From the NCBI RefSeq assembly GCF_054482525.1, contig NZ_CM137006.1: a DNA stretch of 64,000 nucleotides; one strand, written 5' to 3'. Positions 1 through 14,058 of the stretch are shown here, in pieces; the stretch's first letter is position 1; each line of letters opens with the position of its first letter. The position numbers were made by a program, and so were the translations under genes. The notes below the pieces were generated by a model. That model was given only the letters and a program-made list of their open reading frames with translations. It had not been told where the DNA came from and searched no databases.

Positions 1-1
1 C

Positions 2-190
2 GCACAGCGTGCGCTTGACCAGTTCGGGACACCTGAACTCAAAGAATATCTGAACACCACCGGGCTGGGTAATCACCCTGATCTGGTCAAAACGTTCGTG
101 AAAATCGGAAAGGCGATGTCTGAAGATGGCATGGTCACCGGTGGTAATGAAGGCCAGCGTAGTGCGGCCGAAGTGCTCTATGGCAAATAA
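2..190 (+). CDS. Phage protein, 3' end only (possible scaffolding/head-assembly protein)
   Basis: Open frame from window start to TAA at 188-190, ending 15 nt before the putative capsid gene. Function inferred from position only. Confidence 0.35.
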   Translation, partial: AQRALDQFGTPELKEYLNTTGLGNHPDLVKTFVKIGKAMSEDGMVTGGNEGQRSAAEVLYGK

Positions 191-204
191 GAGAGGAAAT
201 GACA

Positions 205-1191
205 ATGGCTGTTAAAGGCTTAACTGCGCTAACGCTGGCTGACTGGGGTAAGCGCGTCGATCCAAACGGGAAAGTCGATAAGATTATCGAGCTTCTCGGT
301 CAAACTAACCCGATCCTTCAGGATATGCCTTTTGTCGAAGGGAACCTTCCTACCGGACACCGAACCACTATTCGTTCTGGTTTACCTTCAGCTACCTGGC
401 GTTTGCTGAACTATGGCGTACAGCCAAGCAAATCAACCACAGTGCAGGTAACCGATTCCGTTGGCATGCTGGAAACCTATGCGGAAGTCGATAAGTCACT
501 GGCTGATCTGAACGGCAATACCGCCGAATTCCGCCTGTCTGAAGACCGCGCATTTATTGAAGCGATGAATCAGCAGATGGCGCAGACGCTGTTTTATGGT
601 GATTCCAGCGTTAACCCTCAGCAGTTTATGGGACTGTCCTCCCGCTATTCCAGCCTGTCTGCGGGTAATGCTCAGAATATCATTGATGCTGGTGGCACGG
701 GTACAGATAACACCTCAATCTGGTTAGTGGTGTGGGGCGAAAACACCGTGCATGGCATCTTCCCGAAAGGGCAGAAGGCTGGCATCCAGATGGAAGATAA
801 AGGCCAGGTGACACTGGAAGATGCTAATGGCGGCAAGTACGAAGGCTATCGCACCCATTACAAATGGGATAACGGACTTGCTCTGCGTGACTGGCGTTAT
901 GTTGTTCGCATTGCAAACATCGATGTCAGCAATCTTTCAGAACCATCCTCTGCCGCAAATATTGCGAAGTTGATGGTTAAAGCACTACATCGCATTCCAA
1001 ACCGTGGCATGGGCCGCCCGGTGTTCTACATGAACCGCACTGTAGGCCAGGCTCTTGATCTGCAGTCTCTGGAGAAAACATCTCTGGCTATCAGCGTAAA
1101 AGAGACAGAAGGCGAGTGGTGGACTTCATTCCGTGGTGTACCAATCCGTGAAACTGATGCGCTTCTGGAAACAGAAGCCCGCGTGGTGTAA
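205..1191 (+). CDS. Putative major capsid protein
   Basis: ORF 199..1191; AGAGGA Shine-Dalgarno is best spaced for the second ATG at 205. Sits upstream of the Tphi-like terminator and the adaptor/nozzle-like genes, as T7 gene 10 does. No sequence-level family match could be confirmed. Confidence 0.5.
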   Translation: MAVKGLTALTLADWGKRVDPNGKVDKIIELLGQTNPILQDMPFVEGNLPTGHRTTIRSGLPSATWRLLNYGVQPSKSTTVQVTDSVGMLETYAEVDKSLADLNGNTAEFRLSEDRAFIEAMNQQMAQTLFYGDSSVNPQQFMGLSSRYSSLSAGNAQNIIDAGGTGTDNTSIWLVVWGENTVHGIFPKGQKAGIQMEDKGQVTLEDANGGKYEGYRTHYKWDNGLALRDWRYVVRIANIDVSNLSEPSSAANIAKLMVKALHRIPNRGMGRPVFYMNRTVGQALDLQSLEKTSLAISVKETEGEWWTSFRGVPIRETDALLETEARVV

Positions 1192-1242
1192 CGCCTGTTA
1201 TTAACCTGTGGGTCGTAACAGACCCACTAATGGAGAAAGAAG

Positions 1243-1680
1243 ATGATCACCGACAAACTGTTGATGTTCTCCGAAGCTCAGGCGGTTACGAATACCGCGG
1301 CTTCTACTGACGTAATCGATCTCGGTCCAATTGACGGAAAACGTCGTGATATCGGCGTGGGTTACCCGCTTGAGTTTTGGGTGCTGGTTAACGCAGCCGC
1401 CGCAGCAAGCGGTGATGCAACTGTAAACATCCAGTTGCAGACGAGTGAGAATAACACCTCATGGACCACTATTTATGATAGTGGCGCACTGGTAAAGACC
1501 GCCCTGACAGCAGGTAAACGAGTTGTTTCTGCAAAGGTGCCTGCCGGTGTTCAGCGATATCTGCGTGTTAACTACTCCGTCGCAACTGGCCCACTAACGG
1601 CTGGCGAATTCACTGCTGGTATCAGTCTTGATGTTGATGCCAATACGCCGTATCCGATCCGCTCAAAAGTAACTGGTTAA
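1243..1680 (+). CDS. Hypothetical virion protein, 145 aa (possible head decoration/accessory)
   Basis: ORF with GGAGAAAG Shine-Dalgarno; co-oriented and tightly packed after the capsid gene. Confidence 0.4.
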   Translation: MITDKLLMFSEAQAVTNTAASTDVIDLGPIDGKRRDIGVGYPLEFWVLVNAAAAASGDATVNIQLQTSENNTSWTTIYDSGALVKTALTAGKRVVSAKVPAGVQRYLRVNYSVATGPLTAGEFTAGISLDVDANTPYPIRSKVTG

Positions 1681-1690
1681 GGTGATATCG

Positions 1691-2026
1691 ATGTCAGGTG
1701 AGAAACCAAGATACCGCGTTCTGCGCCTCTCTCATATCCATAACACTCTGTGGCCGGAGGGGGCAGAAATCGAATACGAAGGTGAGCCTGGTAGCGCACT
1801 GGAACCTGTTAACGATGCAGCCAGACAGGCAAAAGCAAAAGTTGCAGGAAAGGTGTCAATGGCAGCAACCAGCACCAAAATCATCAACGATGTGTCAGAT
1901 GATGGTGAACTGGATAAGCTCCGTGAAGAGTACGAATTGCTCTTTAACGAGAAGCCACACCATAACGCCAAAGCTGAAACGCTCCGCGAGAAGATCGCAG
2001 ATAAGCGTAAAGAACTGGGCGTGTAA
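1691..2026 (+). CDS. Hypothetical phage protein, ~111 aa
   Basis: ORF 1682..2026 in the track; first ATG at 1691. Followed directly by a strong intrinsic terminator. Confidence 0.4.
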   Translation: MSGEKPRYRVLRLSHIHNTLWPEGAEIEYEGEPGSALEPVNDAARQAKAKVAGKVSMAATSTKIINDVSDDGELDKLREEYELLFNEKPHHNAKAETLREKIADKRKELGV

Positions 2027-2042
2027 GCCTCGCGAATCAGAC

Positions 2043-2064
2043 AAGGGGCTTCGGCCCCTTTATT
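2043..2064 (+). terminator. Rho-independent terminator after the capsid gene group (T7 Tphi-like position)
   Basis: aaGGGGCttcgGCCCCtttatt: GC stem, 4-nt loop, T-run. Confidence 0.65.
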
Positions 2065-2076
2065 GCAGGAGTGTAT

Positions 2077-2400
2077 ATGGAACTCGTAAACCTCAAAACC
2101 GGCACTGACAGCTACCAGGATGAGAGCGGAGAAACCAGAACTCGTGATGAATACCCGTGGGGGCTGTGCATCACTCTTAATAACGACACATTGAATAAGC
2201 TGAAGGCGCAACCTAAGGGCGTCGGAACGGAAGTGATGATAACTGCAAAGGCTGTTATTCGAGGCCTGTCTGCCAGAGAAACTGACGATGGCGTTAATCG
2301 CAGCGCCGATCTGCAGATCACTGATATGGCGATCGCTCCTGTTTCCGGGGATGTAGAAAAATCAGCGGCTGAAACTCTGTACGGTAACGGAGGTGAGTGA
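2077..2400 (+). CDS. Hypothetical phage protein, ~107 aa
   Basis: ORF 2071..2400; stop overlaps the next start as TGATG. Confidence 0.4.
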   Translation: MELVNLKTGTDSYQDESGETRTRDEYPWGLCITLNNDTLNKLKAQPKGVGTEVMITAKAVIRGLSARETDDGVNRSADLQITDMAIAPVSGDVEKSAAETLYGNGGE

Positions 2401-3005
2401 TGGCCTCTGTAGTAGAGATCTGTAATCGTGCGCTGTCCAATATTGGCAACAGCCGCAGCATTAACAGCCTGACGGAAGCCAGCAAGGAAGCGGGGGAATG
2501 TTCGCTGCACTTTGAGGCCTGCCGTGATGCTGTGCTTTCTGATTTTGACTGGAACTTTGCTACCAAACGCGTGGCGCTTGCAGATACGAGCAATCCACCG
2601 CCTGACTGGGAATATGCGTACCAGTACCCGTCAGATTGTCTGCGCATTACTGAAATTATGCTTCCTGGTGTACGCAATCCAACAGCAGCAATGCGCGTTC
2701 AGTACGAAGTTGGTGCAGACACCAACGGAACAGGAAAGTTGATCTACACAGACCAGCCTCAGGCATGGCTCAAGTATGTCTCTCGCGTTACAGATGTGAA
2801 CATGTTTGATGCCATTTTTATGGAGGCGTTGGCCTGGCGTCTTGCGGCAGCTATTAACATGGCGCTGACTGGGAATGCAGACCTCGGTACGTTTGCCCTC
2901 AATATGTACAATCGCGTGATTCTTAGTGCTGGCTCGCATAGCCAGAATGAATCACAGGAACCACAGCCACCGGTTGACGAGTTTACCATTGCGAGGTTGT
3001 CCTGA
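2400..3005 (+). CDS. Putative head-tail adaptor / tail tubular protein A-like, 201 aa
   Basis: GGAGGT Shine-Dalgarno; ~200-aa gene immediately before an ~800-aa gene with overlapping stop/start, mirroring T7 gp11/gp12. Assignment is by position and size. Confidence 0.4.
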   Translation: MASVVEICNRALSNIGNSRSINSLTEASKEAGECSLHFEACRDAVLSDFDWNFATKRVALADTSNPPPDWEYAYQYPSDCLRITEIMLPGVRNPTAAMRVQYEVGADTNGTGKLIYTDQPQAWLKYVSRVTDVNMFDAIFMEALAWRLAAAINMALTGNADLGTFALNMYNRVILSAGSHSQNESQEPQPPVDEFTIARLS

Positions 3006-5476
3006 TGGCTATCAGTTGGATCCAGCCCAGCTTTGCCGGTGGTGAGATTGGACCGTCGTTGTACGGACGTATCGACATGGCGAAGTACCAGGTGGCATTG
3101 CGCAAGTGCGATAACTTTATCGTGCGGCAGTATGGCGGCGTTGAGAATCGACCTGGTACGCGTTTTGTCGGTGCCGCCAAATACCCAAATCGGAAATGCC
3201 GCCTGATCCCGTTCCAGTTCTCGACGGTTCAGACCTATGCTCTGGAGTTCGGACACCAGTACATGCGCGTTATCAAAGATGGTGCGTTGGTGCTGAACAG
3301 CAGCAATGTTATTTATGAAATTGCCACGCCATATACTGAAGCCGATCTGTTCCGAATTAAATTTACGCAAAGCGCCGACGTGCTTACGCTGGTTCACCCG
3401 GCATACCCGCCGAAAGAGTTGCGCCGCTATGCGCATGACAACTGGCAACTGGTTGATGTGGTAACGAAGAACGGGCCATTTGAAGATATCAATATTGACG
3501 AGTCAGTGACGGTTTATGCCAGCGCCAGCACTGGGACAATTACGTTAACGGCAAGCGCCTCTATTTTTGGCGCGGAGCAGGTAGGCAAATTGTTCTATCT
3601 GGAACAGCCTGCAGTGGATTCTGTGCCGGTATGGGAAACCAGTAAGAGTACGTCGATTGGCGATATTCGCCGTGCAGACAGTAACTACTATCGCGCCGTT
3701 ACAGCAGGAAAAACAGGCACTTTGCGCCCTTCGCATACAGAAGGCACATCATGGGATGGCTGGGGCGGATCCGGTGATGATGATACTGGCATTGAGTGGG
3801 AGTATCTGCACAGTGGTTTTGGCATTGCCCGTATAACTGCTGTAAATGGCACTACTGCAACTGCTGAGGTGATTTCCTATATCCCTTCGCAGGTCGTTGG
3901 CGAGGATAATGCCAGCTATAAATGGGCTAAATATGCCTGGAACAGTGTTAATGGTTATCCTGGCACTGTTGTTTATTATCAACAACGTCTTTACTTCGCC
4001 GCATCGACTGCGTTCCCTCAGACTATCTGGGCCAGCCGTACTGGGGATTATAAGGATTTTGGCAAAAGCAATCCTACGCAGGATGACGACAGAATTATCT
4101 ACACCTATGCCGGGCGTCAGGTTAATGAGATCCGCCACCTGATTGATGTTGGTTCGCTGGTGGCGCTGACTTCCGGAGGTGAGTATGTCATCACCGGCGA
4201 CCAGAACAAAGTGTTAACCCCATCATCATTTGCATTCAGCTCTCAGGGATCAAATGGCTCAAGCAACGTCCCGCCAATTGCCGTGGCGAATATTGCTTTG
4301 TTCGTCCAGGAGAAAGGCAGTGTTGTACGTGATCTGGCCTACTCATTCGATGTTGACGGCTATCAGGGGAACGACCTGACCATCCTTGCCAATCATCTTT
4401 TTCAGAAGCACAGCATTGTTGACTGGTGCTTCTCGATTGTCCCTTACTCCAGCGCCTTCTGCATTCGTGATGACGGTAAATTGCTGGTGATGACCTATTT
4501 GCGTGATCAGCAGGTTTTTGCATGGGCACCACAATCCAGTACCGGGAAATATGAAAGCACATGCAGTATCAGCGAAGGCAATGAAGATGCGGTGTATTTC
4601 GTCGTTAACCGAACCGTTAACGGGCAAACAGTGAGATACATAGAGCGACTGTCCAGCCGTTTATTTACCAGCGATGAAGATGCTTTCTTTGTTGATTCTG
4701 GCCTTAGCTATGATGGAAGAAATACGTCTGACAGAACGATGACCATCACTGGTGGTTCTGGTGAATGGGATTACCGCGCGGAATATACAATCAGTATTTC
4801 TGGTGGTGCGTACTTCACCAGTAGTGATGTCGGTGCGCAACTACAATTCCCTTATACCGGAACTGATCCTGATACTGGCGATGAAGTGTCAAAAGAATTA
4901 CGTTGCGACATTATTTCTGTAACCAGCAATACCGCTGTAGTGGTTCGTCCTAACAGGAACGTCCCATCATCCCTCAGGAATGTGGCCACCACGAACTGGC
5001 AGATGGCGCGCCGGACATTTGGAGGCCTGTCTCATCTTGAAGGCCAGATCGTAAACATTCTCTCTGATGCGAACGTGGAACCACAGAAAGTTGTTTCCGG
5101 AGGTGCCGTCACGCTGGAATCTCCGGGGGCTGTAGTGCACATCGGCCTGCCAATAACTGCTGAATTCGAAACACTGGATATCAACATTAGCGGACAGGAA
5201 ACGCTGCTGGACAAAAAACAGGTGATCCCGTCCGTTACTCTGGTTGTGAATGCCAGTCGCGGCATCTGGGCGACTACGCCCGGCGGTAAATGGTACGAAT
5301 ATCCACAGCGTGAATTCGAGTTCTACGATGATCCTGTTGATGATGCTACCGGAAAAGTAGAAGTGAAACTGGACAGTAACTGGGGCAAAAACGGGCGTGT
5401 AAAAATCCGTCAGCTTGACCCGTTGCCGCTGTCTGTTCTTGCCGTTATTCCTCGCCTTACTGTTGGGGGAGTCTGA
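3005..5476 (+). CDS. Putative tail tubular protein B / nozzle-like protein, 823 aa
   Basis: TGATG overlap with the upstream gene; size and position match T7 gp12. N-terminus is Gly/Pro-rich. Confidence 0.45.
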   Translation: MAISWIQPSFAGGEIGPSLYGRIDMAKYQVALRKCDNFIVRQYGGVENRPGTRFVGAAKYPNRKCRLIPFQFSTVQTYALEFGHQYMRVIKDGALVLNSSNVIYEIATPYTEADLFRIKFTQSADVLTLVHPAYPPKELRRYAHDNWQLVDVVTKNGPFEDINIDESVTVYASASTGTITLTASASIFGAEQVGKLFYLEQPAVDSVPVWETSKSTSIGDIRRADSNYYRAVTAGKTGTLRPSHTEGTSWDGWGGSGDDDTGIEWEYLHSGFGIARITAVNGTTATAEVISYIPSQVVGEDNASYKWAKYAWNSVNGYPGTVVYYQQRLYFAASTAFPQTIWASRTGDYKDFGKSNPTQDDDRIIYTYAGRQVNEIRHLIDVGSLVALTSGGEYVITGDQNKVLTPSSFAFSSQGSNGSSNVPPIAVANIALFVQEKGSVVRDLAYSFDVDGYQGNDLTILANHLFQKHSIVDWCFSIVPYSSAFCIRDDGKLLVMTYLRDQQVFAWAPQSSTGKYESTCSISEGNEDAVYFVVNRTVNGQTVRYIERLSSRLFTSDEDAFFVDSGLSYDGRNTSDRTMTITGGSGEWDYRAEYTISISGGAYFTSSDVGAQLQFPYTGTDPDTGDEVSKELRCDIISVTSNTAVVVRPNRNVPSSLRNVATTNWQMARRTFGGLSHLEGQIVNILSDANVEPQKVVSGGAVTLESPGAVVHIGLPITAEFETLDINISGQETLLDKKQVIPSVTLVVNASRGIWATTPGGKWYEYPQREFEFYDDPVDDATGKVEVKLDSNWGKNGRVKIRQLDPLPLSVLAVIPRLTVGGV

Positions 5477-5940
5477 TGATCGATGTTCAAATTATTCCCG
5501 CTACCGAAGAGCATCTTCAGATGATTTTGCCGGATGTTCGTCAGGCTGATATTGACGAACTGTATGCGGTATCGCTGATGACTACCGAAGATGCGCTGCG
5601 CGTTGGTCTTCGCACTGCGACTATGGCCTGGTCAGGGTTCGCGAACGGAGAACTGGTAACCATGTTTGGTGTATCTCCGGCGTCAATGATCGGTGGCAAT
5701 GGTACGCCCTGGCTGGTAGGAACCAGCCGTATTGAAAAATATCAGAAGACATTTCTGCGCCACTGCCGCCCTGTATTGCAGCAGATGCTGGCAGTTTATC
5801 CGCGCCTGGAAAACTACGTCGACGAGCGAAACCATGTTGCCAAAGCATGGCTGCACTGGCTTGGATTCAGGCTTGAAGAAGCCGCGCCTTATGGTGCTCT
5901 TGGTCTTAATTTCCACAGATTTCACATGGAGAGAAAATAA
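5476..5940 (+). CDS. Putative internal virion protein, 154 aa
   Basis: Start overlaps the upstream stop; lies in the internal-protein block between nozzle-like gene and tailspike. Confidence 0.35.
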   Translation: MIDVQIIPATEEHLQMILPDVRQADIDELYAVSLMTTEDALRVGLRTATMAWSGFANGELVTMFGVSPASMIGGNGTPWLVGTSRIEKYQKTFLRHCRPVLQQMLAVYPRLENYVDERNHVAKAWLHWLGFRLEEAAPYGALGLNFHRFHMERK

Positions 5941-6485
5941 TGTGCGATCCGGTTATTGCTGGTGGCGCAATGCTCGCCATGAGTGGCATTCAGGCATACA
6001 CCCAGTACCAACAGGGAAAGTATGCCTCGAAGGTTGCAGAAGCGAACGCAGATATAGCCACAGCTCAGGCAAATGATGCAATAAACAGAGGTAACGCTGA
6101 AGCTGAGCAACGACGCAGAGAGACCCGACAGCGGCTTGGTACACAGGCGGCGACAATGGGGGCTACCGGCGCTGATTTATCTACAGGTAACGCGCTGGAT
6201 ATATTTGGCGACACTGCCCAGTTTGGCGCTCTTGATTCGCTGACGACGGTGAATAACGCGCAACGCGAGGCTTACGGTTATCAGGTTCAGGCTGCCAACT
6301 ATAAAGCAGAAGCCAGTTCAGCCCGTAAACAGGGGAATGTGGGAGCAGCAACAACATTGCTCACTGCGCCTCTGAAGGCATACGGTGCCTACCAGATGTT
6401 TGGTGGGACGTGGAGTCCGTTTACTCAAAGTACTCCTGCACCAATCGGGGCAGCAGCAGGAACCAGATTACCCGGAGGATTATAA
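5940..6485 (+). CDS. Putative internal virion protein, 181 aa, Ala/Gly/Gln-rich
   Basis: TAATG overlap with upstream gene; low-complexity helical composition typical of ejection proteins. Confidence 0.35.
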   Translation: MCDPVIAGGAMLAMSGIQAYTQYQQGKYASKVAEANADIATAQANDAINRGNAEAEQRRRETRQRLGTQAATMGATGADLSTGNALDIFGDTAQFGALDSLTTVNNAQREAYGYQVQAANYKAEASSARKQGNVGAATTLLTAPLKAYGAYQMFGGTWSPFTQSTPAPIGAAAGTRLPGGL

Positions 6486-8998
6486 TGCCAGTCGTACCAA
6501 CAGTATCCGGACGTCAGGTTGAGAGCCGTGGAGTTCAGTCAGCAGGCTTGCAGACGTTTTCTCAGCCAGGTATTGGTGATGCTTTTGTTCGGGCAGGGGC
6601 AGAGGCTATTGATGTTTTTGGTCAGGCAAAACAGCGTGCCAATATCGCTCTGGCTCAGGAGGCATCTCTTAACCTCAGTCAGATAAGCAGTGATCTGCTG
6701 AATAATCCTGAAACAGGATTGCTTAACCTGAAAGGGAAAAATGCTATTGGAAAAGGCCATGAGTATACGCAGCAGTTTGATGCTCAGGTCGAACAACTGG
6801 CTATGTCGCTGCCGGATGAACAGGCTCGTAATGCTTTCATGCAGCAGGCGCAGCAGCAGCGCATTCAGTTCACTACGCAGGCAGGGCGGCACGAGATAGG
6901 GCAAATAAATGCCTACGAAGAAGGCCAGTTTCAGGCTACGCTGCTGAACAATGGTAAAAATGCCGCAGCATTGTATGGCGACAACGCCGCATACGTATTG
7001 GCTAATAAGCAAACTTTCCAGCAAATTGAGGATTACGGCATTGCACATGGCTGGAGTGACGAGCAAATCCAGGCCAAGAAAATCGAGTTTAAAGAAGCAA
7101 CAGCAAAAGCAACTGCTCAAAATGCTATTGGAGCAAACTATCTTCAGGTAAGACAGCAAAACGGCGAGTTAAGCGATACTGCTGCTGGATCTCGCCGTGC
7201 TGTAGCAGATAGTGGCTCTTTCGATCGTACCCGCGGTATACGCAACAATAACCCCGGCAATCTTGAATACAGCAAAACTAATCCGTGGGTTGGGCAGACA
7301 GGTGATGATGGTCGCTTTGCTAAATTCGAAACACCTGAACACGGTATTCGTGCATTAGGGCGGAACCTGATGTCGTATCAGCGGCAGGGTATTGATACCG
7401 TCAGCGAGATAATTAATCGCTGGGCACCGCCCACTGATAAAAATGACACAATGTCGTATATCAAAGCAGTGTGCGAACAACTTGGCGTTTCTGCTGATGA
7501 GTCTCTCGATGCATCTAATCCGGATACCCTGAAGGCGCTTTGTGCAGCCATTATCCATCATGAAAACGGTAGCCAGCCATACAGTGATCAGCAGTTAACT
7601 GATGGTGTTAGTGCTGCGCTGGGGCTTTCTCAGCTACCGACAAAAAATAAACGTTATACCGGTGTAGCTTGGTTCGATGCTTTAAGTGAATCAGATCAGG
7701 CCAGCGTGTTGCGACAGACTGATGCACTAGCCAGACAACAGCAGGCTGAATATAAAACGATGCTCGACAGCCGGGTTCGCGATGCGACGGCTGCGTATAT
7801 GCGTGGCGTTGAATTTCCTAACCCACCTGGTGAGGATGATTTTATTGCAGCTTATGGAGTCAGAGAAGGAAACCTGCGATATACCGAGTTTAAGAATACG
7901 CAGATCGCCGGACAGTATATAGGCTCTTTCCGCAACATGCCGACAAGCAGCATTACAGCATATGTTGAGCAATTACGCCCGGATACTGGTGATACAGGGG
8001 AGGGGTATGCGGCACGCGCAGCTCTTTATGACAACGTTGTTTCGGCTGCAAATCAGGTGATAAAGCAGCGGCAGTCGGATCCTGTGCAGTTCTCTCTTGC
8101 CTCCGGACAGGCAAAGCCTATCGACATGAGCAATAAGGATAACTTTGGACAGAGCGTTGCCTTGCGTGCCGCTCAGGTCAGTGACCTTGCTAAGTCATAT
8201 GGCACTCCACTGACGTTCTTTTCCAAAGACGAGGCCAATCAGATCGGTGTTTTCTTTCGTGATGCTCCAGTTTCCCAACAGGCAGCATATCTCGATACCA
8301 TCAGGCAGAGCACTGGTGGTGGGCAGGTGTATATGTCAGCACTACAGCAGATCAGTGCCAACGCTCCATCTGCTGCCGTTGCCGGGATACTGATGGATAA
8401 GCCTGGTGGTATTTTGGCAGAAAAAAACTGGTTTAATCCGGATGTTTCCGTGTCTCCTGAAACCGCTGCGCAGACAATTCTTGCTGGCGCGGCGGCTCGT
8501 AAAGGTACTGATGATGCGAAAGGTATTCCGATGCCTAAAGATGCTGATCTTCGCCTTGAGTTTTCTGACATGGTGAAGGATGCATTTGCTGGTGACGCTC
8601 AGGGGGCATCAATGGCATACGAGATCGCAAAGGATTATTACGCTGGTGTGATGGCGAAAAAAGGCGTGGTATCAGGCGAAATTGACAATGATGTCTGGAA
8701 ACAGGCTGTTAACGTAGCTACAGGTGGCGTGCATGACTATAACGGAATGGGGAATGTCCTTTTGCCGTGGGGAATGTCTGCAGAGCAATTCGATAAGCAG
8801 GTTAATCAGGCTTGGAATGAACAAGTTGTCGGCTCTGGGATAAAAACACCGCCTGGTCAGTATGGTTTGCAAAGTTACGGCGATAGTCAGTACCTGGTGA
8901 AACTTGGTACTGGTTATCTGCTGAAAGATGATGGTTCTCCCGTTGTTCTTAATCTGACACAGAAGCGTCAGAGATTCTCCGGAGATATTCCGCAATGA
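6485..8998 (+). CDS. Putative internal virion/ejection protein, 837 aa, with a conserved central block
   Basis: Track ORF 6410..8998; ATG at 6485 overlaps the upstream stop (TAATG). Central block GIRNNNPGNL...RWAPP...HHENG looks like a globular domain. Confidence 0.4.
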   Translation: MPVVPTVSGRQVESRGVQSAGLQTFSQPGIGDAFVRAGAEAIDVFGQAKQRANIALAQEASLNLSQISSDLLNNPETGLLNLKGKNAIGKGHEYTQQFDAQVEQLAMSLPDEQARNAFMQQAQQQRIQFTTQAGRHEIGQINAYEEGQFQATLLNNGKNAAALYGDNAAYVLANKQTFQQIEDYGIAHGWSDEQIQAKKIEFKEATAKATAQNAIGANYLQVRQQNGELSDTAAGSRRAVADSGSFDRTRGIRNNNPGNLEYSKTNPWVGQTGDDGRFAKFETPEHGIRALGRNLMSYQRQGIDTVSEIINRWAPPTDKNDTMSYIKAVCEQLGVSADESLDASNPDTLKALCAAIIHHENGSQPYSDQQLTDGVSAALGLSQLPTKNKRYTGVAWFDALSESDQASVLRQTDALARQQQAEYKTMLDSRVRDATAAYMRGVEFPNPPGEDDFIAAYGVREGNLRYTEFKNTQIAGQYIGSFRNMPTSSITAYVEQLRPDTGDTGEGYAARAALYDNVVSAANQVIKQRQSDPVQFSLASGQAKPIDMSNKDNFGQSVALRAAQVSDLAKSYGTPLTFFSKDEANQIGVFFRDAPVSQQAAYLDTIRQSTGGGQVYMSALQQISANAPSAAVAGILMDKPGGILAEKNWFNPDVSVSPETAAQTILAGAAARKGTDDAKGIPMPKDADLRLEFSDMVKDAFAGDAQGASMAYEIAKDYYAGVMAKKGVVSGEIDNDVWKQAVNVATGGVHDYNGMGNVLLPWGMSAEQFDKQVNQAWNEQVVGSGIKTPPGQYGLQSYGDSQYLVKLGTGYLLKDDGSPVVLNLTQKRQRFSGDIPQ

Positions 8999-10797
8999 GT
9001 TACTTTGGCCTTAATCCAGTAAACCAGAATCAGCAGCTTGACGAAGCAGCATCAAATCCAGCTGGCTTTAACAGCGATGTTGGTTTTTTCGACAATGCTG
9101 TAGGAGCGGCATTGTCTGGTTTGTACTCCGGGCTGGTGGCAAAGCCAGATCAGTTGCTATGGGCAGGGATGGATAAAATCGTATCCCCGATTGCTCAGTT
9201 TGTTAACGAAAACACCTCGCTCAATGATACTTCAGTTTCATACATTGCCGAGCAGAGAAAACTAGCAGAGCAGCAGGTTAAGCGGCTGACGCCTGATGCC
9301 GCGACAACCGGAACCGCTGGGCAGGTTCTTTATGGGTTGTTCGATATGGGCGGGCAGGCTGTTGTCGGTACAACGCTCGGTGGTCCTGTCGGAGGTGCAG
9401 CGGCGGTAACTTCGCTACAGGGTTTTTCTGAGTTTGAACGGCTGACAGCACAGGGTGTTGATTTCAGGACGGCGCAGGAAGCGGGATTAGTGCAGGGCAT
9501 TACTGCTGGTGCCGGAACGCTGATCCCTATGAGCCTCGGGTTACGTGCTGGTGGTGCGCTGGCGGAAGGTGTGGCGGCTCAGCTTGCGCGGACGGGTGAG
9601 AGTTCAGTGCGACGCGCCGCAGCAACAGCAGTACGTGCAACGCCAGATATTGCCTATGCCGCAGGTACAAATATTGCGTTCGGTATGGCACAGCGTGGGC
9701 TTACTGCAAAAACACTTCGTGATGGTGGCTATAGCGAAATGGCTAACCAGTATGATGTGTTGGATCGACAGGCAATTGCTATTGATGCTGTTCTTGGGGT
9801 GGCGTTTGGTGGTGTCGGCAGATTTATTAACTCTCGCGGCGAGTCTACAAACGCACCAAATTTTTCACCAGTTGATATCGATGCTGCACTGGCGGCGAAT
9901 GCCGCTCATCATGCTGAAATTGATATTGCGCCCGGCGTGCCGATCAACGTGCTTTCGCGCAATTCTCACATTCAGGCTCTGCGAAAAGCTATGTCTGATG
10001 TTAGCCAGGGGAGACCTGTAGACGTTGCCAGCATTGTTGAGTCTGCATCTTTCAGTGAAATTCCTGGGCGCAAGAGTCTGCTGTCTCAGGCAGTTAATGA
10101 GGCTCTGTCATCTGTAGATGATGGAGTAACGGCGCGCGCTATAGAAAATCGGTTGCTTGAAGAACAGGCCGCGCAGCTTTTGCCGCGTGGAGATAGACAG
10201 GTTTACCAGTCTGAAATCGCTAATAGCCAACGAATTATTGAAAATCTCACTGAACAGCGTGCACAAATTCTTGCAGAAGAGCCAACCGGTAGCGGTAAAG
10301 CTTTGTCTCGTGCTCGATCAGATAAACAGGCCAGACTTCGCGATATTGATCAACGAATCCGGCAGGCACAAGAACGCCTGGAATTTTCCCGTAACGCGTT
10401 GGCACCGCACGAGCCTGGCGGTCAGTTTTTTGAAGCTCGAGCAGAACTGGCTCGGAGACAGCAGGCAGAAAGTGAACTTAATGCTCAGGCTGTTTCATTC
10501 TATAAAACAGCAGAGGTCAGGACGCCAGACGAAGTAGCTCCTTTTGAGCCTGATAAAATATTGCAACAGGCAGAACAAAAAATGATGTCAGATCAGGCAG
10601 GAGATATTGATCTGCGCATAGCTGAAGACTCGCTGCTTGAATCACCTGACATGATAATCACCGTGCTGGATGATGATGGTAATCCACAATCGCGCAGTGC
10701 GCGTGAAGTACTGGATGAAGCGAACAGGGAAAGTGAGCAGGCAATACAGGATTCCAGCCTGTTTGATGTTGCTGTGGCGTGTTTCTTGAGAGGTTAA
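8995..10797 (+). CDS. Putative internal virion/ejection protein, 600 aa
   Basis: ATGA overlap with upstream gene; Gly/Ala-rich N-terminal half and charged helical C-terminal half. Confidence 0.4.
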   Translation: MSYFGLNPVNQNQQLDEAASNPAGFNSDVGFFDNAVGAALSGLYSGLVAKPDQLLWAGMDKIVSPIAQFVNENTSLNDTSVSYIAEQRKLAEQQVKRLTPDAATTGTAGQVLYGLFDMGGQAVVGTTLGGPVGGAAAVTSLQGFSEFERLTAQGVDFRTAQEAGLVQGITAGAGTLIPMSLGLRAGGALAEGVAAQLARTGESSVRRAAATAVRATPDIAYAAGTNIAFGMAQRGLTAKTLRDGGYSEMANQYDVLDRQAIAIDAVLGVAFGGVGRFINSRGESTNAPNFSPVDIDAALAANAAHHAEIDIAPGVPINVLSRNSHIQALRKAMSDVSQGRPVDVASIVESASFSEIPGRKSLLSQAVNEALSSVDDGVTARAIENRLLEEQAAQLLPRGDRQVYQSEIANSQRIIENLTEQRAQILAEEPTGSGKALSRARSDKQARLRDIDQRIRQAQERLEFSRNALAPHEPGGQFFEARAELARRQQAESELNAQAVSFYKTAEVRTPDEVAPFEPDKILQQAEQKMMSDQAGDIDLRIAEDSLLESPDMIITVLDDDGNPQSRSAREVLDEANRESEQAIQDSSLFDVAVACFLRG

Positions 10798-10802
10798 ATT
10801 AA

Positions 10803-13277
10803 ATGAGACAGGAATGTATACAAGCGGTCCAGCAGGCGGCGCAGCGCACGTTAACGGCGCGAGAAATACAGAACATTGAAGACCGCATTTATCGAAATAT
10901 GCGCTCCATTGCTCGTGATGACCCGATGTCGTGGCGACAACTTTCCGAATCAGAACGGTTGTATCGTGCAGCACAATTGGCATCTGAAGAATTACAGCGA
11001 GAAGCGGCATTAAAGAAACGTCGTGTGGCCCTCACTATAGCCGCACGTCAGAGATTGGATAAATTTATCAATAGCTATCAAGGGGCTGATGGGAAACTTG
11101 GCGCTCTTAACCGTACTATTGCTTTTAATGCAGACGGTAAATCGAATTTCCTCTCTGTTGAATCCAGAACAAAAGCCACCCGTGATTATGCATTGAGTCA
11201 ATTGCAGGAGGCATTCGAAGCAGTTGATCCTCGCTTTTTTGGTCTGTTTGAAGATGAAGCGGGCGTACGTGACCTGATATATGAAATGCGGGGGCAAAAT
11301 ACTGGCAATGCTAAAGCAAGAAAAGGTGCTAAGGCGTGGAGAGAAGTTACAGAGCTGCTGCGCCGCCGGTTTAATGATGCTGGTGGGGACATTGGCTATC
11401 TCGAAAACTGGGGGATCCCTCAACATCATTCTATGGAAAAGGTTGGGGCGGTATCAAAAGATAAATGGGTTAGCGATGTTATAGGTAAGCTGGATCGCAA
11501 ATATTATACCCGAGCCGATGGACAACTGATGAACGATGCCGAGTTGTCTGCATTTCTTGGAGAGGCTTATAACACGATCGCTACTGGTGGGCTGAATAAG
11601 CTTACTGATACCGGAATGCGAATTTCCGGCGCACGTGCTAACCGTGGTAATGCATCACGACAGATACATTTCAAAGATGCAGATTCCTATCTGCAATATC
11701 AGCAACTTTATGGCGATCGCTCTCTATGGGAAATCATGGTCGGTCACCTGGAAGGTATCAGTAAAGATATTGCACTGGTGGAAACATATGGTCCAAACCC
11801 CGATCATGTTTTCCGCTCTCTTCTTGATCAGGTGAAGGCAGAAACGGCAACAGCTAACCCGAGTAAAACCGGTAAAGTCGAGCGGCTGGCGAACAACACA
11901 GAGAATCTGTACAACTTTATTTCCGGAAAGACACAGCCTGTAGCGAATCCGCACATCGCGCGATGGTCTGACAATATCCGCAACTGGCTGGTTGCCAGCA
12001 GACTCGGATCCGCGTTGCTGTCATCGTTCTCTGATCTTGGAACCATGTATCTGTCTGCGAAGGTTACCAACCTTCCAATGAACCAGTTATTCCGCAACCA
12101 GCTTGAAGCTATGGACCCAACGAACCGTACAGAACTTGCGCGGGCGCGCCGCGCTGGTCTGGCGATGGAATCTCTACTTGGCAGCGTTAACCGCTGGGCG
12201 ATGGATAATATGGGGCCGTCTGTGTCTCGTTGGGCTGCAACGGCGGTAATGCGTGCCAGTGGGCTTACAGCATGGTCAGATGCGCACAAGCGCGCCTATG
12301 GCGTAACCATGATGGGAAGCCTGGGAGAAGTAGTGTCACGGACACCAGACCTTCGTCGCCTCGATGACTCTGATTTTCGTATCCTGAAAAGCAAAGGGAT
12401 TACTGACACAGACTGGAGCGTATGGAAGTTGGCGCAACAGGAGGACTGGGGGAACGGTAATAATACGATGCTGACACCGGAAAGCATTATGCGTATCCCT
12501 GATTCAGCAGTTAAACATCTTGGTGAGCCTGAACGCGTGAAATTTGAGGCAATGCGTAAACTGCTCGGTGCCGTAACTGAAGAAGTTGATATGGCTGTTA
12601 TTACACCGGGAGCACGTGAGCAACTGATAACCGGTTCTGGTATTCAGCGTGGAACATGGAAAGGTGAATTAACGAGAAGTGTTTTCCTGTTTAAATCGTT
12701 CCCTATCTCGGTTGTTATGCGTCACTGGTCACGCGCTATGGGTATGCCGTCTGCTGGTGGGCGTGCGGCATATATTGCGACGTTTATTGCCAGTACGACC
12801 ATTCTTGGCGCTTTGTCGCAACAACTTAACGACCTTGCGTCTGGTCGTAATCCTCGAGAGATGACAGGAGAAGATGCTGCTAAATTTTGGCTTGGTGCTC
12901 TACTGAAAGGTGGTGGTCTTGGCCTTTACGGTGACTTTTTATTGTCAGATCACACTAGGTACGGGAGCGGCGCGCTGGCGTCGATGCTTGGCCCGGTAGC
13001 TGGTCTGGTTGATGACGTAGTGAAGATAGCTCAGGGCATACCGCTAAATGCTGTGGAAGGGAAGAGTGAGCAGACTGGTGGTGATCTGGTGAAGCTGGGG
13101 AAAGGTTTGATGCCAGGTGCGAATCTCTGGTACTTGAAGGCGGCTCTCGATCACATGATCTTTAATCAGATGCAGGAGTATTTTTCACCAGGCTATTTGC
13201 GTAAAATGGAGCAACGTTCGAAGAAAGAGTTTAACCAGACATACTGGTGGCGACCTCAGGATGTCACTCCGCAATAA
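10803..13277 (+). CDS. Putative internal virion/ejection protein, 824 aa
   Basis: GAGAGG Shine-Dalgarno; last large gene of the co-oriented structural block. Confidence 0.4.
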   Translation: MRQECIQAVQQAAQRTLTAREIQNIEDRIYRNMRSIARDDPMSWRQLSESERLYRAAQLASEELQREAALKKRRVALTIAARQRLDKFINSYQGADGKLGALNRTIAFNADGKSNFLSVESRTKATRDYALSQLQEAFEAVDPRFFGLFEDEAGVRDLIYEMRGQNTGNAKARKGAKAWREVTELLRRRFNDAGGDIGYLENWGIPQHHSMEKVGAVSKDKWVSDVIGKLDRKYYTRADGQLMNDAELSAFLGEAYNTIATGGLNKLTDTGMRISGARANRGNASRQIHFKDADSYLQYQQLYGDRSLWEIMVGHLEGISKDIALVETYGPNPDHVFRSLLDQVKAETATANPSKTGKVERLANNTENLYNFISGKTQPVANPHIARWSDNIRNWLVASRLGSALLSSFSDLGTMYLSAKVTNLPMNQLFRNQLEAMDPTNRTELARARRAGLAMESLLGSVNRWAMDNMGPSVSRWAATAVMRASGLTAWSDAHKRAYGVTMMGSLGEVVSRTPDLRRLDDSDFRILKSKGITDTDWSVWKLAQQEDWGNGNNTMLTPESIMRIPDSAVKHLGEPERVKFEAMRKLLGAVTEEVDMAVITPGAREQLITGSGIQRGTWKGELTRSVFLFKSFPISVVMRHWSRAMGMPSAGGRAAYIATFIASTTILGALSQQLNDLASGRNPREMTGEDAAKFWLGALLKGGGLGLYGDFLLSDHTRYGSGALASMLGPVAGLVDDVVKIAQGIPLNAVEGKSEQTGGDLVKLGKGLMPGANLWYLKAALDHMIFNQMQEYFSPGYLRKMEQRSKKEFNQTYWWRPQDVTPQ

Positions 13278-13286: not shown

Positions 13287-13460
13287 GTGTTTTTAATTAT
13301 TTTGAGTGTGATAATTTCTGGTGGATTGTTATTTATTGACCGCTACAAATATTTTCTTAACCCTCAGACTCAAGCTATTTGCTGGTTCATCTTTGTTGTG
13401 CAGGGAGTAGTTCTTGTTGCAAGCCTTATTGAGGGGAGGCCTCTTATTTTTACTGGGTAA
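13287..13460 (+). CDS. Small hydrophobic protein, 57 aa, GTG start (below the ORF-track length cutoff)
   Basis: Hand translation: VFLIILSVIISGGLLFIDRYKYFLNPQTQAICWFIFVVQGVVLVASLIEGRPLIFTG. AAGGAAG Shine-Dalgarno 4 nt upstream; two predicted membrane helices; AT-rich. Confidence 0.3.
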   Translation: MFLIILSVIISGGLLFIDRYKYFLNPQTQAICWFIFVVQGVVLVASLIEGRPLIFTG

Positions 13461-13472
13461 ATAGGTGACTAC

Positions 13473-14035: not shown

Positions 14036-14058
14036 AAAAATCCCGCAGCGCGGGCTTA
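14036..14058 (-). terminator. Intrinsic terminator downstream of the toxin-like gene
   Basis: Minus strand reads aagCCCGCgctGCGGGattttttg. Confidence 0.5.

What the first reader, a model, noticed from the sequence alone, without database searches (positions are those of the whole stretch)
1..13277. T7-like virion module order in an integrated, apparently temperate prophage
Gene sizes and order (capsid, terminator, ~200-aa adaptor-like, ~820-aa nozzle-like, two small then three large internal proteins, tailspike with a T7 gp17-type N-terminus) mirror T7 genes 10-17, yet the element is integrated at guaA and carries SOS-controlled antirepressor-like genes. From memory, epsilon15-like podoviruses use the guaA 3' end as attachment site, which would fit. 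Only the tailspike N-terminus and endolysin gave clear sequence-level family signals, so the other virion proteins may be divergent.
Basis: partly seen in the sequence, partly recalled or inferred. Interest (0 to 1): 0.5.

Follow-up and report, generated by a model that had tools for sequence, protein, structure and literature searches.

The report
Known phiV10/epsilon15-type prophage at guaA
This is the right-hand two thirds of an ordinary, already described epsilon15/phiV10-type (Uetakevirus) temperate short-tailed phage integrated at the end of the E. coli guaA gene. Its tail genes are distant, fold-level relatives of phage T7's, which is already known for this phage group.

Summary
Window 1-13300 is 100% identical to the deposited Escherichia phage HEMP4 and 97.4% identical to phiV10 (genus Uetakevirus); it is about 75% identical to epsilon15.

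**The T7 resemblance is real but only detectable by fold or profile:**
- The 201-aa protein has the T7 gp11 adaptor fold.
- The 823-aa protein is a nozzle. Its closest solved relative is the Carin-1 nozzle, and a profile comparison links it to T7 gp12.
- The 181-aa protein matches Pfam T7_gp14.
- The tailspike N-terminus has the T7 gp17 N-terminal fold.
- Pairwise BLAST against T7 proteins finds nothing.
- The three large internal proteins show no detectable T7 similarity.

- Three small capsid-accessory genes lie between the capsid and adaptor genes.
- The tailspike (16368-19142), the antirepressor genes and the attachment site all lie outside 1-13277.

**Lysogeny features:**
- The right attachment site (attR) is the published 17-bp core at 21584-21600, which is the last codons of guaA.
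- One perfect LexA box (16194-16209) precedes a homologue of the SPC32H antirepressor Ant.

**Verdict:** Side observations are an isrK/C4 RNA pair in front of the BRO-N gene and repressor-operator-like sites in the accessory-gene island at 13278-16367.

The parts
1..190 (+). 3' end of the prohead protease gene (phiV10 p09 homologue), cut by the window edge
   Evidence: Collinear with phiV10 6059-6248. The open frame ends at 188-190.
205..1191 (+). Major capsid protein, epsilon15 gp7 type
   Evidence: NCBIfam MCP_gp7_epsi_15 equivalog, E 9e-124. PHROG 212 major head protein.
1243..1680 (+). Bbp16-family capsid cement protein
   Evidence: Pfam Bbp16 PF21190, E 1.6e-44. PGAP gives this name to the homologue.
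1691..2026 (+). Small conserved protein of unknown role (epsilon15 gp9 homologue)
   Evidence: PHROG 590, E 3.5e-61, function unknown. The annotation of the phiV10 counterpart, p12, cites similarity to epsilon15p09.
2043..2064 (+). UUCG hairpin plus UUUAUU tail; possible weak terminator or attenuator
   Evidence: Folds at -13.6 kcal/mol. Epsilon15 annotates a terminator stem-loop between gp9 and gp10. Not flagged by the simple terminator scan.
2077..2400 (+). Capsid staple protein, epsilon15 gp10 type
   Evidence: Pfam Gp10-like PF21628, E 1.2e-49.
2400..3005 (+). Tail adaptor (T7 gp11 fold)
   Evidence: PDB 8CK1_E Carin-1 connector, E 4e-26. AF2 model with pLDDT 84. Foldseek finds T7 gp11 7BOX at E 5e-6, TM 0.57-0.60 over the full length; P22 gp4 only reaches E 1.1.
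3005..5476 (+). Tail nozzle (T7 gp12 type)
   Evidence: PDB 8CK1_A 'Tail Nozzle', E 1e-216, and LME-1 orf18. Family profile against T7 gp12 by hhalign: E 1.1e-4 over 174 columns. Profile against PDB finds another phage nozzle, gp13, at E 2.6e-6. The family has 18,249 cluster representatives.
5476..5940 (+). Small internal virion protein in the position of T7 gp13
   Evidence: PHROG 308 'internal virion protein', E 9e-63. No Pfam hit and no significant T7 gp13 similarity.
5940..6485 (+). Internal core protein, T7 gp14 family
   Evidence: Pfam T7_gp14 PF24072, E 1.2e-6, model positions 1-172 of 187. PGAP names homologues 'virion core protein, T7 gp14 family'.
6485..8998 (+). Large internal/ejection protein with a cell-wall-degrading domain (aa 249-403)
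   Evidence: PDB 9VVP_L Gp29, E 2e-39, and 7Q47 endolysin, E 1e-17, both on aa 249-403. PHROG 992/1044/873. Epsilon15 gp15 is annotated with an HHpred match to a lytic transglycosylase.
8995..10797 (+). Second large internal protein (epsilon15 gp16 homologue), function inferred from position only
   Evidence: PHROG 1145, function unknown. No Pfam hit and no T7 similarity.
10803..13277 (+). Third large internal/virion protein (epsilon15 gp17 homologue)
   Evidence: PHROG 684 'virion structural protein'. No PDB hit and no Pfam hit. Homologues at 88% identity or more are 'hypothetical protein' across Enterobacteriaceae.
13287..13769 (+). Two small membrane-protein ORFs (13287-13460 and 13473-13769), followed by a terminator at 13778-13795
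   Evidence: Translations. PHROG 3075. phiV10 p21 is the counterpart. Terminator.
14056..14755 (-). Accessory gene pair: 59-aa ORF (14576-14755) overlapping a 181-aa YafO-like toxin ORF (14056-14601)
   Evidence: Pfam YafO only E 0.048. PGAP names the homologue a YafO family toxin. PADLOC finds nothing. An operator-like site at 14815-14831 lies upstream.
14903..15598 (-). BRO-N domain protein with an Ant-like C-terminal domain (second antirepressor-like gene)
   Evidence: Pfam Bro-N, E 7.7e-20. PHROG 130 anti-repressor; its C-terminus matches PHROG 450, the same family as the small Ant.
15646..15831 (-). C4 antisense RNA (15646-15731) and isrK-type RNA (15756-15831) upstream of the BRO-N gene
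   Evidence: Rfam RF01695 at 79.2 bits and RF01394 at 77.9 bits, both above gathering score. The same pair is present in phiV10.
15914..16186 (-). Antirepressor Ant, SPC32H type (likely true start at 16171)
   Evidence: PDB 5D50_E 'Anti-repressor protein', E 1.3e-46.
16192..16211 (.). LexA (SOS) box aaCTGTATATTTATACAGta in front of ant
   Evidence: One of only two CTGT-N8-ACAG matches in the 64 kb window, and the only one with an A/T-only spacer. Conserved in epsilon15.
16248..16264 (.). Phage repressor operator ATTACCTAAAAGGTAAT in the ant/tailspike intergenic region
   Evidence: Perfect palindrome. It has the same motif as, and occupies the same intergenic position as, the site annotated 'repressor' in epsilon15. 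The motif occurs 15 times in phiV10 against 1.2 expected.
16368..19142 (+). Tailspike: gp17-type N-terminal anchor (about aa 1-180) plus a pectate-lyase-like beta-helix receptor-binding part
   Evidence: N-terminus against the Carin-1 fibre 8CK1, E 7e-33. Foldseek finds the T7 gp17 N-terminus (7BOZ, 7EY9, 8DSP) at E 4e-4 to 5e-3 for the better chains, with rmsd 1.8 A over 82 columns for 7EY9_a. Pfam Pect-lyase_RHGA_e. PHROG 14558 tail spike.
19675..21496 (+). Lysis cassette: two holin-like proteins, GH19 endolysin (20373-21002) and Rz-like spanin (20999-21496)
   Evidence: PHROG 198, 217 and 181. Collinear with phiV10 p27-p30 and with PGAP names.
21584..21600 (+). attR core ATTGAGTGGGAATAATT, which is the last codons (IEWE-stop) of guaA
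   Evidence: Phage similarity ends at 21600 and host similarity starts at 21584. Alignment with phiV10 and epsilon15 attP and K-12 guaA. The published core is attgagtgggaatgatt.
21623..21650 (+). Native guaA terminator, followed by host genes yfgI, yfgH and onward
   Evidence: Terminator. Host annotation.

Best explanation
Window 1-21600 is the right-hand part of a phiV10/epsilon15-type (Uetakevirus) temperate podovirus prophage inserted at the 3' end of E. coli guaA. It runs from the end of the protease gene, through the virion module, an accessory and regulatory island, the tailspike gene and the lysis cassette, to attR.

Shown here:
- The DNA is identical or near-identical to isolated phages of this group.
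- The capsid genes are of the epsilon15 gp7 and gp10 type, plus a Bbp16-type cement protein.
- The tail is T7-type by fold or profile: a gp11-fold adaptor, a gp12-type nozzle, a gp14-family core protein, and a tailspike with a gp17-type N-terminal anchor.
- One large internal protein carries a cell-wall-degrading domain.
- attR is the 17-bp guaA core.
- A LexA box precedes a homologue of the SPC32H antirepressor Ant.

Inferred from solved relatives (T7, Carin-1, LME-1) and from epsilon15 cryo-EM work:
- A 12-mer adaptor sits on the portal and a 6-mer nozzle closes the channel.
- Six trimeric tailspikes dock through their N-terminal domains and cut O-antigen with their beta-helix.
- The internal proteins form a core on the portal and are ejected to build a channel across the cell envelope. 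The muralytic domain opens the peptidoglycan.

Inferred from the att anatomy and from published work on SPC32H and vB_EcoP_ZX5:
- A tyrosine integrase, which lies outside the window, recombines the 17-bp core. The phage arm supplies a stop codon and a terminator, so guaA stays intact.
- DNA damage cleaves LexA, Ant is made, Ant disassembles the Rep repressor tetramer, and the many Rep-operator-controlled promoters open.
For: Identity:
- 100% to phage HEMP4 and 97.4% to phiV10 over 1-13300; about 75% to epsilon15. Gene-for-gene collinearity with phiV10 and epsilon15 annotations.

Capsid:
- NCBIfam epsilon15 gp7 equivalog; Pfam Bbp16 and Gp10-like.

Tail:
- Adaptor model against T7 gp11, E 5e-6, TM about 0.6; against the Carin-1 connector, E 5e-16.
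- Nozzle against Carin-1, E 1e-216, and by profile against T7 gp12, E 1.1e-4.
- Pfam T7_gp14, E 1.2e-6.
- Tailspike N-terminal model against T7 gp17 N-terminus structures, prob 1.0.
- Muralytic domain in the 837-aa protein.

Integration:
- Host similarity starts at 21584 and phage similarity ends at 21600. The core equals the published attP/attB of ZX5, phiV10 and epsilon15.
- A related lysogen has the order guaB-guaA-integrase ... lysis genes-yfgI.

Induction:
- LexA box at 16194-16209, conserved in epsilon15.
- Ant matches 5D50_E at E 1.3e-46. Ant breaks Rep tetramers (PMC9638917).

Precedent:
- A temperate element with a T7-like tail and no sequence similarity to T7 is described for LME-1 (PMC12407071).
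- Epsilon15 ejects internal proteins and has a T7-like core stack (PMC8954989).
Against: - The left third or more of the prophage (integrase, repressor, replication genes, terminase, portal) is not in the window, so completeness and inducibility are unverified.
- No complete E. coli genome in the collection carries exactly this mosaic. The best covers 94% at 97.2%, and HEMP4 covers only 55% of 13278-21700.
- The three large internal proteins have no detectable similarity to T7 gp15 or gp16. Their ejection role rests on position and on epsilon15 literature.
- Similarity of the adaptor to T7 gp11 is undetectable by sequence profile.
- Pfam Phage_T7_tail is not significant for the tailspike.
Confidence: 0.95

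Rival explanations
1. The element is a defective or cryptic remnant of such a phage rather than a functional, inducible prophage.
For: Only the right part is visible. No complete genome in the collection carries the identical mosaic. The accessory-gene and tailspike region differs from every deposited phage at megablast level.
Against: - All ORFs from the capsid gene to the spanin gene are intact and collinear with phiV10.
- 13.3 kb is 100% identical to an isolated phage.
- The att core and the LexA/Ant module are intact.
- Relatives of this group are inducible or spontaneously released (PMC9782041).
Confidence: 0.12
2. The resemblance to T7 genes 10-17 is convergent or a chance similarity of gene sizes, not shared ancestry of the tail machine.
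For: Pairwise BLASTP and phmmer against T7 gp8-gp17 give nothing significant. The adaptor profile against T7 gp11 gives nothing. This phage has three large internal proteins where T7 has two.
Against: Four separate components, in the same order, match T7 counterparts by independent methods: gp11 fold over the full length, gp12 by profile, the gp14 Pfam family and the gp17 N-terminal fold. The solved relatives Carin-1 and LME-1 have tails described as closely resembling T7's.
Confidence: 0.03
3. The virion module is of the P22 type (Lederbergvirus), the other common temperate podovirus of enterobacteria.
For: It is a temperate enterobacterial podovirus with an O-antigen tailspike and SOS/antirepressor features. 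A review places epsilon15 with P22 in its gp14 and gp16 trees.
Against: - The adaptor model matches P22 gp4 only at E 1.1, against 5e-6 for T7 gp11.
- The capsid is epsilon15 gp7 type.
- No P22-type tail needle or gp10 hub homologue was found in the module by PHROGs or PDB searches.
- The tailspike N-terminus is gp17-type, not the P22 head-binding domain.
Confidence: 0.01

Closest known systems
Escherichia phage phiV10 (Uetakevirus phiV10) and close relatives HEMP4, phiv142-3, vB_EcoP_ZX5, PAS61
   Same: 97-100% nucleotide identity over the whole structural module. Same gene order from protease to spanin. Same guaA 17-bp att core. Same isrK/C4 RNA pair and BRO-N gene. Same repressor-operator motif.
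   Different: The tailspike receptor-binding part and the accessory-gene island are swapped. phiV10 has the O-acetyltransferase gene oac after the tailspike, whereas here there is a 94-aa membrane ORF. This element carries a YafO-like toxin pair that is absent from the phiV10 annotation.
Salmonella phage epsilon15 (type Uetakevirus; capsid PDB 3J40)
   Same: About 75% DNA identity across 2389-8010. gp7 capsid, gp10 staple, gp11-gp17 order, LexA box in front of gp19/ant, operator motif and guaA att core.
   Different: Epsilon15 lacks the BRO-N gene and the isrK/C4 RNAs. It carries O-antigen conversion genes and has a different tailspike body.
Cobetia marina phage Carin-1 (PDB 8CK1) and Legionella phage LME-1 (PDB 9EFK)
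   Same: Sequence-level homologues of the adaptor, nozzle and fibre N-terminus. Both tails are solved, and the LME-1 authors describe LME-1's tail as closely resembling T7's and call Carin-1 a T7-like virus. LME-1 is likewise an integrated temperate element.
   Different: Different hosts and the rest of the genome is unrelated. Adaptor identity is only 19-32%.
Phage T7 genes 10-17 (Autographiviridae)
   Same: Same order: capsid, adaptor, nozzle, small protein, gp14, large internal proteins, fibre. Similar sizes. Fold- or profile-level homology for gp11, gp12, gp14 and the gp17 N-terminus.
   Different: - No pairwise sequence similarity.
- Three extra capsid-accessory genes.
- Three large internal proteins instead of two, with the muralytic domain inside the first of them rather than at the gp16 N-terminus.
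- A 3-kb leftward-transcribed island separates the internal proteins from the tailspike.
- Terminase and portal lie upstream rather than terminase at the far right.
- Temperate lifestyle; no single-subunit RNA polymerase is annotated in phiV10.
Salmonella phage SPC32H Rep/Ant antirepression system (PDB 5D50)
   Same: Ant homologue at E 1.3e-46, with a LexA box immediately upstream.
   Different: The Rep gene is outside the window. Binding of LexA and Rep to these particular sites was not tested.

Membership tests
Uetakevirus (epsilon15/phiV10-like temperate podoviruses) | High nucleotide identity and collinearity with type members | tested here: met
   100% to HEMP4 and 97.4% to phiV10 over 1-13300. 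Gene-for-gene collinear with phiV10 and epsilon15.
Uetakevirus (epsilon15/phiV10-like temperate podoviruses) | Genus-level identity (from my own knowledge: about 70% over the full genome length) | tested here: inconclusive
   Only about 21.6 kb of an expected ~39 kb genome is in the window. The right 8.4 kb is only 39-58% covered by deposited phages.
Uetakevirus (epsilon15/phiV10-like temperate podoviruses) | Epsilon15-type capsid: gp7 major capsid protein plus gp10 staple protein | tested here: met
   NCBIfam MCP_gp7_epsi_15, E 9e-124. Pfam Gp10-like, E 1.2e-49.
Uetakevirus (epsilon15/phiV10-like temperate podoviruses) | Integration at the guaA 3' end through the 17-bp core attgagtgggaatgatt | tested here: met
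   attR at 21584-21600 with one mismatch (TAA instead of TGA stop). Host and phage similarity overlap exactly there. Published core.
Uetakevirus (epsilon15/phiV10-like temperate podoviruses) | P4-type tyrosine integrase next to attL at guaA | not testable with these tools
   This lies upstream of the window. It is present in the related lysogen E. coli 2452, where the order is guaB-guaA-integrase.
T7-type tail and ejection machine | Adaptor with the T7 gp11 fold | tested here: met
   AF2 model, pLDDT 84. Foldseek finds 7BOX, 7EY7 and 6R21 (T7 gp11) at E 5e-6 to 1e-4, TM 0.53-0.60 over about 205 columns. Sequence profile alone gives nothing.
T7-type tail and ejection machine | Nozzle homologous to T7 gp12 | tested here: met
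   8CK1_A 'Tail Nozzle', E 1e-216. hhalign of the family profile against T7 gp12 gives E 1.1e-4, probability 57%, 174 columns. This is moderate support; no fold model was made.
T7-type tail and ejection machine | gp14-family internal core protein | tested here: met
   Pfam T7_gp14 PF24072, E 1.2e-6, covering model positions 1-172 of 187.
T7-type tail and ejection machine | Homologues of gp15 and gp16 | tested here: inconclusive
   No BLAST, phmmer, Pfam or PDB link to T7 gp15 or gp16. Only a muralytic domain, which plays the same role as the one at the gp16 N-terminus.
T7-type tail and ejection machine | Fibre or spike with a gp17-type N-terminal tail-binding domain | tested here: met
   Foldseek finds 7BOZ, 7EY9 and 8DSP (T7 gp17 N-terminus) at prob 1.0, with rmsd 1.8 A over 82 columns for 7EY9_a. 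hhalign is collinear over 129 columns, P 0.0095. Pfam PF03906 itself is not significant, E 1.9.
Autographiviridae (T7-like phages as a taxon) | Phage-encoded single-subunit RNA polymerase and a strictly lytic life cycle | tested here: not met
   The element is integrated. The complete genome of its 97%-identical relative phiV10 has an integrase and a repressor and no RNA polymerase annotated. It works like T7 at the tail but is not a member of that family.
SPC32H-type LexA/Ant/Rep antirepression | Small Ant protein homologous to 5D50 chain E | tested here: met
   E 1.3e-46 across 83 aligned residues.
SPC32H-type LexA/Ant/Rep antirepression | LexA box in the ant promoter region | tested here: met
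   CTGTATATTTATACAG at 16194-16209, 8 nt upstream of the first in-frame ATG (16186) and about 23 nt upstream of the likely start (16171). Conserved in epsilon15. Binding was not tested.
SPC32H-type LexA/Ant/Rep antirepression | Cognate Rep repressor gene | not testable with these tools
   Outside the window. Rep-type operators are present at 16248-16264, 15867-15883 and 14815-14831.
P1/P7 immI-type C4 antisense RNA control of an antirepressor | C4 RNA gene upstream of, and co-oriented with, the ant-like gene | tested here: met
   Rfam RF01695 at 79.2 bits (gathering score 45) at 15646-15731 (-), 48 nt upstream of the BRO-N gene start.
P1/P7 immI-type C4 antisense RNA control of an antirepressor | a/b target sequences complementary to C4 | tested here: inconclusive
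   RF03163 c4-a1b1 scores 45.1 bits against a gathering score of 46.7, at 15792-15844 and overlapping the isrK match. The downstream a2/b2 target at the ribosome-binding site was not examined.

The most novel reading that the evidence does not exclude
The 3-kb leftward-transcribed island between the ejection-protein genes and the tailspike gene may encode an undescribed layered induction circuit for this phage group. It would combine three elements: a LexA-gated Ant; a BRO-N antirepressor gated by a Rep-type operator and by isrK/C4 RNA; and a YafO-like toxin pair fronted by a Rep-type operator, expressed only after derepression. Separately, the three large internal proteins, which show no detectable similarity to T7 gp15 or gp16, might build an ejection channel of a different architecture.
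Probability: 0.2. Interest if true: 0.35.

Novelty: already known. Interest (0 to 1): 0.1.

Why it matters
It matters little. The finding rediscovers a well-studied phage group.
- Epsilon15 was sequenced and imaged by cryo-EM nearly twenty years ago.
- phiV10 and several relatives are in GenBank.
- The guaA attachment core, the LexA/Ant switch and the T7-like nature of the tail are all in the literature or in RefSeq annotation.

The practical value is annotation. Most of these proteins are still labelled 'hypothetical' by automatic pipelines, and here they can be named adaptor, nozzle, gp14-family core protein and muralytic ejection protein. About 2% of complete E. coli genomes carry such a prophage at this locus. 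Its swappable tailspike marks O-antigen specificity.

Tried and rejected
- Pairwise BLASTP and phmmer of all window virion proteins against T7 gp8-gp17 gave nothing significant. T7 homology therefore cannot be claimed at pairwise sequence level.
- hhalign of the adaptor family against T7 gp11 gave nothing. Only the fold search worked.
- Pfam on the adaptor, nozzle, 154-aa, 600-aa, 824-aa and 837-aa proteins gave no family. NCBIfam gave only the capsid protein.
- Pfam Phage_T7_tail on the tailspike was not significant. None of the listed homologues of the N-terminus carries that Pfam domain.
- A homologue search with the 824-aa protein returned only unnamed proteins at 88% identity or more.
- A hydrophobicity scan of the internal proteins was uninformative.
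- PADLOC on the eight ORFs tested (seven from the 13278-16367 island, one after the tailspike gene) found no defence-system match.
- A literature search for '8CK1' returned only irrelevant papers. The SPC32H (PMC3807360) and Carin-1 (PMC10134823) primary papers are not held, so they are cited only through papers that quote them.
- The P22-type reading was considered and rejected.
- There is no tRNA in the window, so a tRNA attachment site was ruled out.

Full report
**What is there**

The ORF map of 1-22000 shows one long rightward gene block. It starts at a truncated gene at the window edge and runs to 13277. A 3-kb stretch with mostly leftward genes follows (13278-16367). Then come a 924-aa ORF (16368-19142), a lysis cassette (19675-21496) and host genes from 21691 onward.

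Megablast of 1-13300 against 50,697 phage records gives 100% identity over 100% of the query to Escherichia phage HEMP4. It gives 97.4% to phiV10 (genus Uetakevirus) and several relatives, 81% to Enterobacter phage Tyrion and about 75% to Salmonella phage epsilon15. The annotated phiV10 and epsilon15 records are collinear with the window gene for gene. Window 1-190 is the end of the protease gene.

**Checking the T7 analogy**

T7 genes 10A, 11, 12, 13, 14, 15, 16 and 17 encode 345, 196, 794, 138, 196, 747, 1318 and 553 aa. The window has 328 aa (capsid), then 145, 111 and 107 aa. The last three are a Bbp16-type cement protein, an unknown protein, and an epsilon15 gp10-type staple protein by Pfam. 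Then come 201, 823, 154, 181, 837, 600 and 824 aa and, 3 kb further on, 924 aa.

Pairwise BLASTP and phmmer against the T7 proteins find nothing. More sensitive tests give the following.

- **Adaptor, 201 aa.** It matches the Carin-1 'Connector Protein' (8CK1_E, E 4e-26) and LME-1 orf17 by sequence. An AlphaFold model (pLDDT 84) matches T7 gp11 structures over the full length (7BOX E 5e-6, TM 0.57-0.60). It also matches the adaptors of PhiM1, KP32, Kp7/Kp9 and cyanophages. P22 gp4 reaches only E 1.1.
- **Nozzle, 823 aa.** It matches the Carin-1 'Tail Nozzle' (E 1e-216) and LME-1 orf18. A profile of 20 diverse family members aligns with T7 gp12 residues 270-466 (hhalign E 1.1e-4, probability 57%). 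The same profile finds another phage nozzle in the PDB at E 2.6e-6. The family is very large, with 18,249 cluster representatives.
- **gp14-like, 181 aa.** It matches Pfam T7_gp14 at E 1.2e-6 over nearly the whole model.
- **Tailspike N-terminus.** It matches the Carin-1 fibre by sequence (E 7e-33). A model of residues 1-176 matches T7 gp17 N-terminal structures (7BOZ, 7EY9, 8DSP) at probability 1.0, with rmsd 1.8 A over 82 columns for 7EY9_a. hhalign against T7 gp17 is collinear over 129 columns but weak (P 0.0095). Pfam Phage_T7_tail is not significant (E 1.9).
- **Large internal proteins.** The 837-aa protein has a muralytic domain at aa 249-403 (9VVP Gp29 E 2e-39, 7Q47 endolysin E 1e-17). 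The 600-aa and 824-aa proteins have no informative match anywhere.

So the order and four of the parts are T7-type by descent. The three large proteins are T7-like only by position.

The LME-1 paper describes the same situation for a Legionella temperate element: no sequence similarity to T7, but a tail that 'closely resembles' T7's and is closest to Carin-1 (PMC12407071). A review notes that epsilon15 ejects internal proteins and has a T7-like core stack (PMC8954989). The epsilon15 RefSeq record already carries an HHpred note linking gp11 to T7 tail tubular protein A.

**The 'terminator'**

A 7-bp hairpin without a U-tract follows the capsid gene (1208-1227). A UUCG hairpin with a UUUAUU tail (2043-2064) follows the third gene. 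That is the position where epsilon15 annotates a terminator stem-loop. Both fold at -13.6 kcal/mol. The simple scan flags neither. The parallel with T7's terminator T-phi is therefore loose.

**Integration**

In prophage-free E. coli, similarity to the window begins at 21584 inside guaA. Similarity to phages ends at 21600. The 17 shared bases, ATTGAGTGGGAATAATT, encode the last four codons and the stop codon of guaA.

An alignment of window attR, phiV10 and epsilon15 attP, and K-12 guaA shows this common core. The paper on phage vB_EcoP_ZX5 reports the same core (attgagtgggaatgatt) at the guaA 3' end and cites the same for phiV10 and epsilon15 (PMC9782041). ZX5 is 97.4% identical to the window's structural module.

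The native guaA terminator follows at 21623-21650, then yfgI, yfgH, yfgG, pdeF, ppx and ppk1. The phage attP also carries a guaA-terminator-like hairpin to the right of the core. At attL this would terminate guaA; that step is an inference.

The left end is outside the window. In E. coli 2452, the complete genome with the most similar prophage (94% coverage, 97.2% identity), the order is guaB-guaA-integrase ... repressor ... terminase-portal ... lysis genes-yfgI. Of 5,426 complete genomes, 117 hold at least 80% of window 1-22300 in one place.

**SOS link**

There are two CTGT-N8-ACAG matches in the 64 kb window. One is inside the capsid-cement spacer and has a G+C-rich spacer. The other, aaCTGTATATTTATACAGta at 16192-16211, is a near-consensus LexA box. 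It lies just upstream of the leftward ORF 15914-16186.

That ORF matches the SPC32H antirepressor (5D50_E) at E 1.3e-46. Epsilon15 has the same box before its gp19. Ant is reported to break the Rep tetramer (PMC9638917). The primary SPC32H papers are not held.

The second antirepressor-like gene is BRO-N plus an Ant-like C-terminal domain, at 14903-15598. It has no LexA box of its own and lies behind a terminator at 15775-15762.

**Found in passing**

- Rfam places an isrK-type RNA (15756-15831) and a C4 antisense RNA (15646-15731) on the minus strand, directly upstream of the BRO-N gene. A near-threshold c4-a1b1 target match is also there. phiV10 has the same pair and epsilon15 has neither. 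This is the P1/P7 immI type of antirepressor control.
- The palindrome ATTACC-N5-GGTAAT, annotated as the repressor site in epsilon15, occurs at 16248-16264, 15867-15883 and 14815-14831. It occurs 15 times in phiV10 against 1.2 expected, near almost every promoter region.
- The site at 14815-14831 abuts a -10-like hexamer (my own reading of the sequence). It lies upstream of a 59-aa ORF that overlaps a YafO-like 181-aa ORF. PADLOC finds nothing there.
- HEMP4 covers only 55% of 13278-21700. The tailspike body and the island are mosaic swaps, as described for Uetakevirus tailspikes (PMC10408124).

**Verdict**

Everything of substance is already known: the phage group, its attachment site, its LexA/Ant switch and the T7-type nature of its tail. 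Interest is low.

What remains open is the nature of the three large internal proteins and the wiring of the accessory and regulatory island.

Noticed in passing
window 15646-15844 (- strand): An isrK-type RNA (RF01394, 77.9 bits) and a C4 antisense RNA (RF01695, 79.2 bits) lie directly upstream of the BRO-N antirepressor-like gene. A c4-a1b1 target match sits just under the gathering score. This is a P1/P7 immI-like arrangement. The same pair is in phiV10 (L001 20278-20463), where it is not annotated, and is absent from epsilon15.
   Followed up: partly
window 14815-14831, 15867-15883, 16248-16264; L001 (phiV10) at 15 sites: The repressor-operator-like palindrome ATTACC-N5-GGTAAT is strongly over-represented: 9 in the window against 1.7 expected, and 15 in phiV10 against 1.2 expected. 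It sits in intergenic regions in front of ant, the isrK/C4-BRO operon and the toxin-like pair.
   Followed up: partly
window 14056-14755 (- strand): A 59-aa ORF (14576-14755) overlaps the start of a 181-aa YafO-like ORF (14056-14601), a toxin-antitoxin-like layout. Pfam YafO is only E 0.048. PGAP calls the homologue in CP048107 a YafO family toxin. There is no PADLOC hit. A Rep-operator-like site and a -10-like hexamer lie just upstream.
   Followed up: partly
window 13278-21600 compared with phage HEMP4 (OR424387.1): The structural module is 100% identical to HEMP4, but HEMP4 covers only 55% of the following 8.3 kb. The tailspike receptor-binding part, the island genes and the gene after the tailspike have been exchanged. 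After the tailspike there is a 94-aa membrane ORF at 19179-19463 where phiV10 has the oac gene.
   Followed up: partly
literature: PMC8954989 Table 1 compared with NC_004775.2 (L002): The review lists 'Epsilon 15 gp11 (229 aa), gp12 (499 aa), gp13 (708 aa)' as the gp14, gp15 and gp16 homologues. In the RefSeq record, gp11, gp12 and gp13 are 201, 825 and 154 aa and correspond to the adaptor, the nozzle and a small internal protein. The table's entries do not correspond to epsilon15 genes of those numbers.
   Followed up: no
window 21597: The att core at attR reads ...GGGAATAATT, giving a TAA stop. K-12 attB and the phiV10, epsilon15 and ZX5 attP sites all read ...GGGAATGATT, giving a TGA stop. 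This is a single-base variant of unknown origin, from either the host allele or the phage allele.
   Followed up: no
window 54816-54939 (+ strand): An STnc490 Hfq-binding sRNA (RF01405, 146 bits) lies in the host part of the window. It is unrelated to the prophage.
   Followed up: no
window 13801-13962 (- strand): A 53-aa ORF with a signal-peptide-like N-terminus (MKKAFAALFVLLSLVASTQAFA...) lies between the membrane-protein ORFs and the toxin-like gene. It is annotated as a hypothetical protein in related prophages.
   Followed up: no
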